DNA from: Anaerolineae bacterium
GTDB lineage: Bacteria; Chloroflexota; Anaerolineae; Aggregatilineales; Phototrophicaceae
Reading direction: 5' to 3'
NCBI GenBank assembly: GCA_030950085.1
Contig: JAUZRW010000118.1
Span: 1-23,119 of the forward strand
Length of the DNA: 23,119 nucleotides
The notes beneath the pieces are model-generated. The model had not been told where the DNA came from. It saw nothing but the letters and a program-made list of their open reading frames with translations, and did no database searches. The translations under genes and the position numbers were made by a program. Of this stretch, positions 13,027 through 13,107 are shown in pieces. Numbering within the stretch: position 1 is the stretch's first letter; every line of letters begins with the position of its first letter.

Positions 13027-13107
13027 AGTTACGCAGTGGCGTACAAAAATTGTAGGGGCATACCCGTGTGTGCGCCCGAAAATAACGGTCAACTGCGTAA
13101 GTCCTAA
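13027..13107 (+). repeat. GTAGGGG-hairpin element, complete MITE-like copy with 9-bp terminal inverted repeats.
   Basis: TIR ttacgcagt (13029-13037) pairs with actgcgtaa (13092-13100). Core: ttgtaggggcatacccgtgtgtgcgcccgaaaataacggtcaactgcgtaagtcctaa. The stem is GGGGCATAC/GTGTGCGCCC. It lies 35 nt after the stop at 13015. Confidence 0.65.

What the first reader, a model, noticed from the sequence alone, without database searches (positions are those of the whole stretch)
13027..13107. GTAGGGG-hairpin REP/MITE-like family with strand bias and proximity to gene 3' ends
Copies lie at 5876, 13050, 18387, 20986 (diverged) and 21887, with a partial reverse-complement copy at 22730. Five of six are in the same orientation on the + strand regardless of flanking gene orientation. 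Three (13050, 18387, 21887) sit 35-77 nt after the stop codons of + strand genes.

The core is a GC-rich stem (GGGGCGTAC/GTGTGCGCCC) around a CACGTG palindrome, followed by GAAAAT. On the opposite strand the hairpin is followed by a T-run in two copies (cgcccctacaGTTTTTgg, gcccctacaaTTTTTg), so it could terminate antisense or convergent transcription. The 13027-13107 copy has perfect 9-bp terminal inverted repeats.

A companion 11-mer, atatggggcat, accompanies two copies (18437, 20948).
Basis: seen in the sequence. Interest (0 to 1): 0.5.

Follow-up and report, generated by a model that had tools for sequence, protein, structure and literature searches.

The report
RAYT-type REP hairpin repeats
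These are copies of a small GTAG-tagged DNA hairpin repeat (a REP element) of the kind tied to RAYT transposases, here in an uncultured Anaerolineae bacterium; the repeat is real, but it belongs to an already described class and is ordinary.

Summary
The repeat is real. A structure model built from copies in other genomes finds three strong copies (21889, 13052, 18388; E 3e-13 to 9e-8), one diverged copy (5876) and one marginal copy (20988), all on the + strand. Two decayed copies lie on the - strand (22718-22781, 11828-11848).

The core is a canonical GTAG-tagged REP: GTAG, an 8-bp stem (GGGNNNAC/GTNNNCCC) and a CCNNGT loop. The same 26-mer occurs in 30 genomes carrying about 10 phylum-level labels, with compensatory stem changes. 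There it flanks RAYT (TnpA_REP) genes and sits in frame inside them. That matches the described subclass 2.4 / Bertels group 4 REPtron.

In this genome the duplicated unit is an ~84-nt composite, which I read as this REP nested in the loop of a second, decayed REP type.

Placement 34-79 nt after stop codons in sense orientation holds for the three strong copies (nominal p about 0.01). Not supported:
- Strand bias: 5:2, not significant.
- Antisense terminator role.
- CACGTG motif.
- Companion 11-mer.

No RAYT gene lies in the ~41 kb available for this species. A 99.96%-identical sister assembly shows no copy gain or loss.

Verdict: new member of a known kind; low interest.

The parts
13024..13107 (+). 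Best-preserved ~84-nt composite unit. The inner REP is at 13052-13077 (GTAG + hairpin). The outer 9-bp inverted arms are 13029-13037 and 13092-13100. The tails are GAAAAT.AC and GTCCTAA. It starts 8 nt after the stop of the gene 12086-13015.
   Evidence: family D4; 35.7 bits; folds at -29.4 kcal/mol, z -3.75
21861..21944 (+). Second full composite unit, 79% identical to the first. The inner REP is at 21889-21914 and is a perfect match to the cross-phylum consensus. It starts 6 nt after the stop of the gene 21204-21854. It directly abuts a family-B repeat at 21944/21945.
   Evidence: D4; 44.8 bits
18354..18428 (+). Third unit. The REP at 18388-18413 is intact (tag ATAG, last base T). The flanks are homologous to the composite unit but carry indels. 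The REP lies 79 nt after the stop of the gene 16686-18308 and 128 nt before tRNA-Gln.
   Evidence: 28.6 bits; local alignment score 55
5876..5900 (+). Diverged bare REP (GTAGGGGCG-ACAGCGTGCTG-CGCCC) without the composite flanks. It lies between two - strand genes and is antisense to both.
   Evidence: (17.4 bits, E 5e-4)
20988..21010 (+). Marginal REP-like hairpin (GTAGGGGTTAACGTGCTAAACCC) in a divergent promoter region. Membership is uncertain.
   Evidence: 12.4 bits, E 0.026; fold no better than shuffles
22718..22781 (-). Decayed copy of the composite unit. The 5' half of the hairpin is lost, while the tail GAAAATCACAATCAATTATGTAAG is kept. It is fused to family B with a 10-nt deletion at the junction.
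   Evidence: I4, I5; score 60
11828..11848 (-). Orphan 3' end of the composite unit (AGTCAACCGCGTAAGTCCTAA). The rest has decayed beyond recognition.
   Evidence: I7, I14; 3 matches against 0.04 expected
21944..22041 (-). Family-B repeat (~95 nt) joined directly to the composite unit. Other B copies are at 11956-12047 (+), 18688-18780 (+) and 22628-22724 (+). It is a separate repeat family that travels with the REP unit in two places.
   Evidence: (D3, I1-I3)

Best explanation
The GTAGGGG hairpins are REP elements (repetitive extragenic palindromes) of the type cognate to RAYT / TnpA_REP tyrosine HUH transposases of subclass 2.4 (Bertels group 4). The source is an uncultured Anaerolineae bacterium (Chloroflexota).

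Anatomy (shown): a 5' GTAG tag; an 8-bp stem whose bottom three pairs are G-C; and a 6-nt loop CCNNGT. The G.T pair makes the hairpin stable only on the GTAG strand.

Mechanism (inferred from the family, not tested here):
- The hairpin forms on single-stranded DNA, most likely at the replication fork.
- The RAYT binds it, reads the GTAG tag, then cuts and rejoins. Over evolutionary time this multiplies copies in intergenic DNA.
- Copies survive mainly just after stop codons, where they are harmless. There they are transcribed into 3' UTRs, and the sense-strand RNA hairpin may protect the upstream mRNA from 3' exonucleases.

In this genome the unit that was duplicated is an ~84-nt composite. 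I read it as this REP, with its GAAAATCAC tail, nested in the loop of a second, now degenerate, REP type (GAAG-TTACGCAG...CTGCGTAA-GTCCTAA). That composite has in turn become joined to an unrelated ~95-nt repeat (family B).

The copies are old (at most 79% identical, several decayed). They show no sign of recent movement.
For: 1. Family signature. GTAG plus hairpin scores up to 44.8 bits / E 2.8e-13 against a model made from other genomes.

2. Structure under selection. Across 43 distinct variants from 63 loci, 98.8% of cells pair and 4 of 8 pairs show compensatory changes (CGT/GCG, CAG/CTG, TAG/CTA, CGG/CCG, CTC/GAG and others); 0 of 500 shuffles reach this, and slid registers collapse. Selection bias is small: 122 of 147 regex matches have the full 8-bp stem.

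3. RAYT link.
- L016 1453-2136(-) hits Pfam Y1_Tnp (27.5 bits, above its cut-off) and NCBIfam REP_Tyr_transpos (E 1.5e-15).
- In that locus the REP sits 21 nt before the ATG.
- A second copy lies in frame between HuH (NHFH) and Y (YIRDNP), encoding GAHVGTPL.
- A third copy supplies the TAG stop codon, and a REP doublet follows.
- The same holds in two Chloroflexota-related loci, L068 and L070, and partly in L002 and L056.

4. RAYT subclass. At least 7,960 homologues exist, and many of those a source has named are called 'REP element-mobilizing transposase RayT'. Among the top 120:
- 107 have NH[FIV]H.
- 117 have WQ.
- Most have YIxxNP.
- Median length is 198.5 aa.
- 88 carry a REP-encoded peptide.
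These are the published marks of subclass 2.4: NH[IFV]H, WQ, YIxNNP, mean length 194 aa; a long REP with 3 G-C pairs at the stem bottom; REPs inserted in frame inside tnpA_REP; found in Cyanobacteria, Bacteroidetes and various other phyla (PMC6006769).

5. Distribution. The core 24-mer is found in 30 genomes labelled Bacteroidota, Bacillota, Chloroflexota, Cyanobacteriota, Nitrospirota, Planctomycetota, Armatimonadota, Binatia, delta- and alphaproteobacteria. It is often arranged as inverted doublets.

6. Strand asymmetry. Folding gives -15.1 against -10.5 kcal/mol at 21889, -12.8 against -9.1 at 13052, and -13.2 against -7.1 at 18388.

7. Placement. All copies are intergenic. Three of three strong copies are sense and no more than 80-100 nt after a stop (p about 0.005-0.01 against random intergenic placement, threshold chosen post hoc). 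Across the other genomes, REPs lie closer to the upstream stop (median 84 nt) than to the next start (193 nt) (crude gene calls). This agrees with PMC3733652.

8. Nested reading. A related 4.95-Mb contig (L072) has short GTAG REPs: GGACGCAA-TGTA-TTGCGTCC followed by GYCCTAA, and another followed by TCGAAAATCAC. The outer arms of the window unit are colinear with the first type: 5 identical pairs, 3 compensatory pairs and the same GTCCTAA tail. The inner REP has the second tail (my reading of the sequences).
Against: - No RAYT gene lies in the window or in the other ~18 kb available for this species. The rest of the genome could not be reached, so the cognate enzyme is unverified here.
- The window copies are singletons inside a composite. 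They are not the inverted doublets (REPINs) usual for active REP families.
- There is no presence/absence difference against a 99.96%-identical sister assembly over ~21 kb, although a 1.5-kb insertion sequence (IS) did move. This means no direct evidence of mobility.
- Copies are diverged, which could mean the system is extinct in this lineage.
- The RNA-level role is pure inference; there are no transcript data.
- The nested REP-in-REP reading rests on two good copies and on five REPs in one relative.
- R1's high scores for the three strong copies are partly circular, because the pattern used to collect the family came from them. The family itself, however, was defined on other genomes.
Confidence: 0.82

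Rival explanations
1. The ~84-nt unit is a conventional MITE. It would be a deletion derivative of an insertion sequence, moved through its terminal inverted repeats by a DDE transposase, and the REP hairpin would be only a passenger.
For: - One copy has perfect 9-bp inverted ends.
- The whole unit folds as one long hairpin.
- The flanks, not just the hairpin, are shared by four or five copies.
- DDE transposases and an active IS66-like element exist in this species.
Against: - The second full copy keeps only 5-6 of 9 arm pairs.
- No target-site duplication is visible at either full copy.
- The arms do not match the inverted repeats of the IS66-like element (GTAACTGCTCAGG).
- The arms are colinear with the stem and tail of short GTAG REPs in a relative. 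That explains them without invoking an insertion sequence.
Confidence: 0.08
2. The hairpins are primarily regulatory RNA or DNA signals kept by selection at gene ends. They would act as terminators of antisense or convergent transcription or as 3' UTR stabilisers, rather than as mobile DNA.
For: - Three strong copies lie 34-79 nt after stop codons in sense orientation.
- The sense strand has the more stable hairpin.
- Two copies have a T-run on the other strand, and the terminator scan picks a weak site at 21904-21889 (-).
Against: - In sense orientation, GAAAAT or TGTTGT follows the hairpin, so there is no U-tract.
- In antisense orientation the stem is weaker (z -0.2 to -1.2), and CUACA(A/G) separates it from the U-run.
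- The T-run is part of the repeated unit and is absent in other genomes.
- The 13052, 18388 and 21889 copies are each followed by a + strand gene, so there is no convergent transcript to stop.
- Near-identical sequence in unrelated loci and phyla, and inside RAYT genes, shows common descent by copying rather than local evolution.
- A secondary, exapted stabiliser role is not excluded.
Confidence: 0.07
3. The hairpins are subterminal palindromes left by IS200/IS605-family elements (TnpA_IS200 with or without TnpB). That would make them palindrome-associated transposable elements rather than RAYT-linked REPs.
For: The enzymes are related, and both use hairpins on single-stranded DNA. The associated protein also hits the IS200 model weakly (23.5 bits).
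Against: - The associated proteins score far better on the RAYT model (57.3 against 23.5 bits).
- They have the NHFH / WQ / YIxxNP motifs and ~195-aa length of RAYT subclass 2.4, not the DH[VI]H / YxENQ motifs of IS200 (PMC6006769).
- No tnpB gene is nearby.
- The hairpin carries the GTAG tag typical of REPs.
Confidence: 0.03

Closest known systems
REPs of TnpA_REP (RAYT) subclass 2.4 / Bertels group 4 REPtrons (Quentin et al. 2018, PMC6006769)
   Same: - GT[AG]G tag.
- Long hairpin with three G-C pairs at the stem bottom.
- The same hairpin flanks the RAYT gene and is inserted in frame between its HuH and Y motifs.
- Patchy spread over Cyanobacteria, Bacteroidetes and other phyla.
- RAYT motifs NH[IFV]H, WQ, YIxNNP.
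   Different: - In the window itself no RAYT is seen.
- Copies are singletons buried in an ~84-nt composite, not free REPs or doublets.
- The host (Anaerolineae) is barely represented in that study: Chloroflexi is mentioned once in the text.
GTAG-tagged REP superfamily (Di Nocera et al. 2013, PMC3733652); E. coli REP/BIME; Pseudomonas REPINs (PMC3116915)
   Same: - Unpaired GTAG at one end.
- 6-13 bp stem with complementary substitutions and G.T pairs.
- Mostly intergenic, downstream of genes, between unidirectional or convergent genes.
- Found as singletons, dimers or clusters.
- GTAG repeats already reported in Chloroflexi, Cyanobacteria and the PVC group.
   Different: - The stem and loop sequence differ from the proteobacterial families.
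- This 26-mer is nearly invariant across phyla, whereas group 2/3 REPs are species-specific.
- I could not compare it with the 24 published consensus sequences, because they are in a figure that is not held.
Bacterial MITEs (for example Nezha in cyanobacteria, RUP, ERIC)
   Same: Short, non-coding and intergenic. One copy has inverted ends, and the unit folds into a long hairpin.
   Different: - No target-site duplication.
- The ends are not conserved between copies.
- No parent insertion sequence.
- The core is a REP with a RAYT partner.
IS200/IS605 subterminal hairpins
   Same: A single-strand hairpin recognised by a Y1 HUH enzyme, with a short guide sequence next to it.
   Different: The partner enzyme is of RAYT type. 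The hairpin is dispersed alone in many copies, rather than bounding a transposase gene that moves with it.

Membership tests
REP (GTAG-tagged repetitive extragenic palindrome) | Conserved unpaired GT[AG]G tetranucleotide directly 5' of the hairpin | tested here: met
   GTAG is present at 5876, 13052, 20988 and 21889, and ATAG at 18388. In other genomes, 42 of 43 distinct variants have GTAG and 1 has GTGG.
REP (GTAG-tagged repetitive extragenic palindrome) | 20-40 nt imperfect palindrome whose stem is kept by compensatory changes | tested here: met
   The stem is 8 bp. Of all cells, 98.8% pair, 4 of 8 pairs show changes on both sides, and 0 of 500 shuffles reach this. The fold is -15.1 kcal/mol.
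REP (GTAG-tagged repetitive extragenic palindrome) | Many dispersed copies confined to extragenic DNA of one genome | tested here: inconclusive
   All 7 copies or remnants in the window are intergenic. No further copy was found in ~14 kb of extra sequence of the species.
REP (GTAG-tagged repetitive extragenic palindrome) | A RAYT gene in the same genome flanked by the same REP (REPtron) | not testable with these tools
   No RAYT lies in the window or in L064-L066. The association is met in other genomes: L016, L068, L070 and partly L002 and L056.
REPIN (REP doublet forming a hairpin) | Two REPs in inverted orientation 20-100 nt apart as the repeated unit | tested here: not met
   The window copies are singletons. 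A possible inverted partner at 18429-18454 (-) scores only 7.9 bits, E 0.88. Doublets are common in other genomes.
REP cognate to RAYT subclass 2.4 | Long REP with three consecutive G-C pairs at the stem bottom, and the same REP inserted in frame inside tnpA_REP | tested here: met
   GGG/CCC is invariant. In-frame REPs occur in L016, L068 and L070, and 88 of the 120 top RAYT homologues carry a REP-encoded peptide, mostly GAHxGAPL. The criterion is taken from PMC6006769.
MITE | Conserved terminal inverted repeats plus target-site duplication | tested here: not met
   Perfect 9-bp arms occur only in the 13024-13107 copy, while 5-6 of 9 pair in the 21861-21944 copy. There is no duplication at the flanks.
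Intrinsic (Rho-independent) terminator | G+C-rich hairpin immediately followed by a U-tract on the transcribed strand | tested here: not met
   In sense orientation the hairpin is followed by GAAAAT or TGTTGT. In antisense orientation the stem is weaker and a 5-6 nt spacer precedes the T-run. Only a 5-bp partial stem at 21904-21889 (-) is picked by the scan.
Any Rfam RNA family | Match to a curated covariance model | tested here: not met
   Only the two tRNAs pass. Nothing overlaps the repeats even at E up to 1.

The most novel reading that the evidence does not exclude
In this Anaerolineae lineage the unit that multiplied may be a single REP nested in the loop of another REP type, later fused to a third repeat (family B). 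It is neither a bare REP nor a REPIN doublet. That would be a composite 'REP-in-REP' mobile unit, implying that a RAYT can move cargo placed inside a hairpin loop.

A related open point: this 26-nt REP stays almost invariant across about 10 phyla while its RAYT diverges to ~40-60% identity. It is also carried in frame inside the RAYT gene. This could mean the internal copy has a function of its own, such as self-regulation or an anchor for specificity, rather than being a tolerated insertion.
Probability: 0.2. Interest if true: 0.45.

Novelty: new member of a known kind. Interest (0 to 1): 0.22.

Why it matters
The practical value is in annotation. These hairpins should be labelled as REP elements, not as terminators, small-RNA genes or MITEs, in Anaerolineae metagenome-assembled genomes. 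The model built here (GTAG, 8-bp stem, CCNNGT loop) recognises the family in many phyla.

It also adds a Chloroflexota example to a RAYT subclass described mainly from Cyanobacteria and Bacteroidetes. And it gives a compact case of nested and fused repeats that could be used to ask what a RAYT can carry.

It does not open a new mechanism or answer a long-standing question.

Tried and rejected
- Source genome by exact protein look-up. Two window proteins were not on record. It was later traced through a homologue to GCA_030949545.1.
- PLSDB plasmids searched with the 84-nt unit: no match.
- Metagenome scan for the tail of the composite unit and for family B: 0 hits each. Both appear restricted to this species in the data held.
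- Viral contigs: one locus only, so there is no sign of a phage vector.
- Rfam at gathering and at E up to 1: nothing on the repeats.
- Literature search for the sequence itself: only chance primer matches.
- Simple perfect-stem GTAG-hairpin scan of the window: too strict and uninformative.
- First RAYT regex, which required P[ND]HxH plus Y..NP: missed everything. A relaxed version found L016.
- Attempt to find this species' own RAYT by reading cluster members of ten NCBI-sourced homologues: the only organism named was a Gammaproteobacteria MAG, so there was no lead to this species.
- 4459-4486 (-) (13.3 bits): rejected as a family member. It is a textbook terminator of the acyl-CoA dehydrogenase gene, with a 12-bp stem followed by TTTTGCG.
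- 22377-22404, GTAG...CTAC 'double-foot'-like hairpin: single copy with nothing similar elsewhere. Treated as an ordinary 3' hairpin.
- CRISPR-like or tandem organisation: not present in the window.
- Empty-site comparison: the only close relative is 99.96% identical and has every copy. More distant relatives (L071, L072) are not syntenic.

Full report
**What is in the window.**
- The region 13024-13107 reads AGAAG-TTACGCAGT-GGCGTACAAAAATT-GTAGGGGCATACCCGTGTGTGCGCCC-GAAAATAACGGTCA-ACTGCGTAA-GTCCTAA.
- A repeat search finds a second 84-nt copy at 21861-21944 (79% identical). It also finds a 24-nt core shared by 13053, 18389 and 21890, and inverted partial copies at 22718-22761 and 11822-11847.
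- The 9-mer GTAGGGGCG with up to one mismatch occurs 8 times against 2.4 expected.
- All copies are intergenic. The surrounding genes are ordinary housekeeping and regulatory genes, plus tRNA-Ser and tRNA-Gln.

**Where the window comes from.**
- A homologue of the gene upstream of the 13052 copy led to GCA_030949545.1, an 'Anaerolineae bacterium' metagenome-assembled genome.
- Its contigs JAUZSI010000225.1 and JAUZSI010000099.1 are 99.94-100% identical to the window over about 29.5 kb.
- So the host is an uncultured Chloroflexota bacterium, and the sister assembly serves as a near-isogenic comparison.
- Every repeat copy is present in both.
- The only differences are two extra copies of a 1.5-kb IS66-like insertion sequence (IS) in the sister assembly.

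**The core is not species-specific.**
- A scan of one genome per species with TAGGGGCRTACCCNNGTGTGCGCC returned 63 loci in 30 genomes. These are labelled Prevotella/Bacteroidales, Ruminococcus/Clostridiales/Bacillota, Anaerolineae and Ca. Leptofilum, Phormidium and Shackletoniella, Nitrospira, Planctomycetia, Armatimonadales, Binatia, Desulfomonile/Geobacter/Syntrophaceae and an alphaproteobacterial bin.
- The flanks differ from locus to locus.
- Many copies form inverted doublets with a partner such as GTAGGGGCAGACCCCCGTGTCTGCCC. Some form tandem arrays.
- Collecting all GT[AG]G-GGG-N16-CCC strings gave 147 hits, of which 122 have a perfect 8-bp stem.
- The 43 distinct variants share GTAG, GGG/CCC and a CCNNGT loop. 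The three middle stem pairs co-vary: CGT/GCG, CGC/GCG, CAG/CTG, TAG/CTA, CGG/CCG, CGA/TCG, CTC/GAG, AGC/GCT.
- 98.8% of cells pair, 4 of 8 pairs have changes on both sides, and no shuffle or slid register comes close.
- This is the anatomy of a GTAG-tagged REP as defined by Di Nocera et al. 2013 (PMC3733652).

**Copies in the window, scored against that family.**
- Model R1 gives 21889-21914 at 44.8 bits, 13052-13077 at 35.7, 18388-18413 at 28.6 and 5876-5900 at 17.4 (E 5e-4). 20988-21010 scores 12.4 (E 0.026). All are on the + strand.
- A hit at 4459-4486 (-) is an ordinary terminator and was set aside.
- Local alignments show that the 18388 copy and the reverse copy at 22718-22781 also carry the left and right flanks of the 84-nt unit. 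11828-11848 (-) is an orphan 3' end.
- The unit that was duplicated in this genome is therefore the ~84-nt composite. It has five copies in various states of decay, plus one bare diverged REP (5876) and one doubtful one (20988).

**The link to RAYT transposases.**
- Among the 63 loci, one ORF family overlapped the hairpin.
- L016 1453-2136(-) is a Y1 HUH protein. It hits Pfam Y1_Tnp at 27.5 bits against a cut-off of 23. It hits NCBIfam REP-associated tyrosine transposase at 57.3 bits (E 1.5e-15, below the equivalog cut-off of 80), against 23.5 bits for IS200.
- Reading the DNA of that locus shows four things:
  - A REP lies 21 nt before the ATG.
  - A reverse REP lies in frame between NHFH and YIRDNP and encodes GAHVGTPL.
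  - The stop codon TAG is the TAG of a downstream GTAG.
  - A second REP and an inverted partner follow.
- L002 is a near-identical copy, and L056 (Geobacteraceae) is a 37%-identical relative.
- A protein search found at least 7,960 homologues, and many of those a source has named are called 'REP element-mobilizing transposase RayT'.
- Two Chloroflexota-related examples were fetched. L068 has REPs at 3265 (+) and 3297 (-) inside the gene 3001-3603 and one at 3619 just after it. L070 has one at 3330 (-) inside the gene 3001-3564.
- In the top 120 homologues, NH[FIV]H occurs in 107 and WQ in 117. YIxxNP occurs in nearly all, and the median length is 198.5 aa. 88 contain a REP-encoded peptide: GAHxGAPL-like, VGADPRVCP-like, or both.
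- These are the published marks of TnpA_REP subclass 2.4 (Bertels group 4): NH[IFV]H, WQ, YIxNNP and mean length 194 aa. Its REP is long, with three G-C pairs at the stem bottom, and REPs are inserted in frame between HuH and Y. [quoted passage not shown]
- The cross-phylum identity of the hairpin, which at first looked strange, is thus the known behaviour of this subclass.

**What could not be shown.**
- No RAYT lies in the window or in the further ~18 kb of this species that I could fetch, and the rest of the genome is out of reach.
- The copies are at most 79% alike, several are decayed, and none differs between the two near-identical assemblies.
- So there is no evidence of present-day movement, and the enzyme may be elsewhere or lost.

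**The composite unit.**
- The first copy folds as an outer stem enclosing the REP hairpin (-29.4 kcal/mol, z -3.75). The second folds less well (z -1.81).
- A related 4.95-Mb contig (L072) carries five short GTAG REPs in 21 kb. All lie right after gene ends. They have an 8-bp stem, a 4-nt loop and one of two tails:
  - GTAG-GGACGCAA-TGTA-TTGCGTCC-GCCCTAA
  - GTAG-GGACGTGA-TGTA-TCGCGTCC-GTCCTAA
  - GTAG-GGGCATGG-CGCA-CCATGCCC-TCGAAAATCAC
.
- The outer part of the window unit is GAAG-TTACGCAG...CTGCGTAA-GTCCTAA. It is colinear with the first type: five identical pairs, three compensatory pairs (GG/CC to TT/AA, A/T to G/C) and the same tail.
- The inner REP carries the second tail (GAAAATAAC / GAAAATCAC).
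- My reading (inference from few sequences) is that a REP of one type landed in the loop of a REP of another type, and the composite was then copied. This also explains the 'terminal inverted repeats' without a MITE.

- Strand bias: 5 on + and 2 on - once all remnants are counted, which is not significant. A 23-kb window cannot address replication direction; GC skew is mostly negative but changes sign.
- Gene-end association:
  - The three strong copies are sense and 34-79 nt after stops.
  - Against random placement in the intergenic space this has p about 0.005-0.01 for a cut-off of 80-100 nt, chosen after the fact.
  - 5876 is antisense between two genes, and 20988 is in a divergent promoter region.
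  - In the other genomes, with crude ORF-based gene calls, REPs lie nearer the upstream stop (median 84 nt) than the next start (193 nt), and orientation is 42 sense to 27 antisense. This matches the literature.
- Terminator on the opposite strand:
  - The complement loses the G.U pair (-10.5 against -15.1 kcal/mol; z -0.2 to -1.2).
  - The T-run starts 5-6 nt after the stem, and all three strong copies are followed by a co-directional gene.
  - The sense strand has no U-tract.
  - A role as a 3' UTR stabiliser remains possible but is untested.
- CACGTG: the two central positions are free in the family.
- The 11-mer: two exact copies, but chance alone gives about 66 repeated 11-mers here, and their position relative to the hairpin is inconsistent.

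**Verdict.** This is a real, correctly sensed REP family: a new member of a described kind (REPs of RAYT subclass 2.4) in an Anaerolineae host. Its local peculiarities (nested composite unit, fusion with another repeat) are mildly interesting but rest on few copies. Interest is low.

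Noticed in passing
window 11956-12047 (+), 18688-18780 (+), 22628-22724 (+), 21944-22041 (-): This is a second interspersed repeat, family B, about 95 nt long: TTGTTTAACAAACT...TTTTGTGTGAGGCGCGGTGAAACCCCGAAAGGGGCTTA. The copies are 74-83% alike and have two predicted stem-loops with little covariation. It has no Rfam match and none in JGI metagenomes. Two copies lie just upstream of start codons, at 12086 and 22043.
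   Followed up: partly
window 21861-22041 and 22628-22781: The REP composite plus family B forms a ~150-180-nt block. It is present twice in inverted orientation (arms 97 nt, 81% complementary, 586 nt apart). The two blocks bracket a 103-aa ORF (22043-22354) with no Pfam match. The two junctions differ by a 10-nt deletion between TAAG repeats. It could be a cassette-like structure or an inverted duplication.
   Followed up: partly
window 18781-18788 and 22026-22033; L065 3702-5218 and 8473-9983: The sister assembly GCA_030949545.1 carries two 98%-identical copies of a ~1.5-kb IS66-like element. Its inverted ends are GTAACTGCTCAGG, it encodes a 389-aa transposase, and it makes 8-bp duplications (TTCAAATA and GTTAAACA). 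Both copies are absent from the window. Both insertions sit at the edges of family-B repeats, which suggests a target preference or recent activity.
   Followed up: partly
window 832-1445 (inside ORF 1-3276): There is a long run of 6-nt and 12-nt periodic repeats (ACNNNN units). It encodes a threonine-rich TxTx-type linker in a 1091-aa protein fragment that has SH3 and lectin-like domains.
   Followed up: no
L048 5209-5322 (-), L063 around 2892, L033 around 6200-6330: In other genomes the same REP forms head-to-tail tandem arrays. An Anaerolineae MAG has five 30-nt units of CAATCGTAGGGGCGTACCCACGTGTGTGCC. A Phormidium MAG has repeated half-hairpins GGTACCYGCGTGTGCGCCC. An Armatimonadales MAG has GGGCAGGCACGGAACAAGAA repeats.
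   Followed up: no
L072 5535-5605, 6298-6321, 8184-8207, 10895-10918: A related 4.95-Mb contig has a different, shorter GTAG REP family (8-bp stem, 4-nt loop). Its 3' tails are conserved: GYCCTAA or TCGAAAATCAC. The same tails occur in the window's composite unit, which suggests that the tails are part of the recognised element in this lineage.
   Followed up: partly
L067 (IMG/VR contig IMGVR_UViG_3300013137_001328) 1179-1236 and 7364-7422: This is the only 'viral' contig with the REP, and it holds four or five copies in two clusters. It may be a prophage region or a misclassified bacterial fragment.
   Followed up: no
L002 versus L016: Two bins with different labels share nearly identical DNA around the RAYT (96% at protein level). 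One is labelled 'uncultured Alphaproteobacteria' and the other 'bacterium CSMAG_2917'. The phylum labels of some of these assemblies should therefore be treated with caution.
   Followed up: no
window 22377-22404 (+): The hairpin GTAGTGGCGCGATGTATCATGCCGCTAC has GTAG at the 5' end and CTAC at the 3' end. It lies 22 nt after the stop of the 103-aa ORF. It has the shape of the 'double-foot' REPs described for RAYT subclass 2.4, but it is a single copy here.
   Followed up: yes
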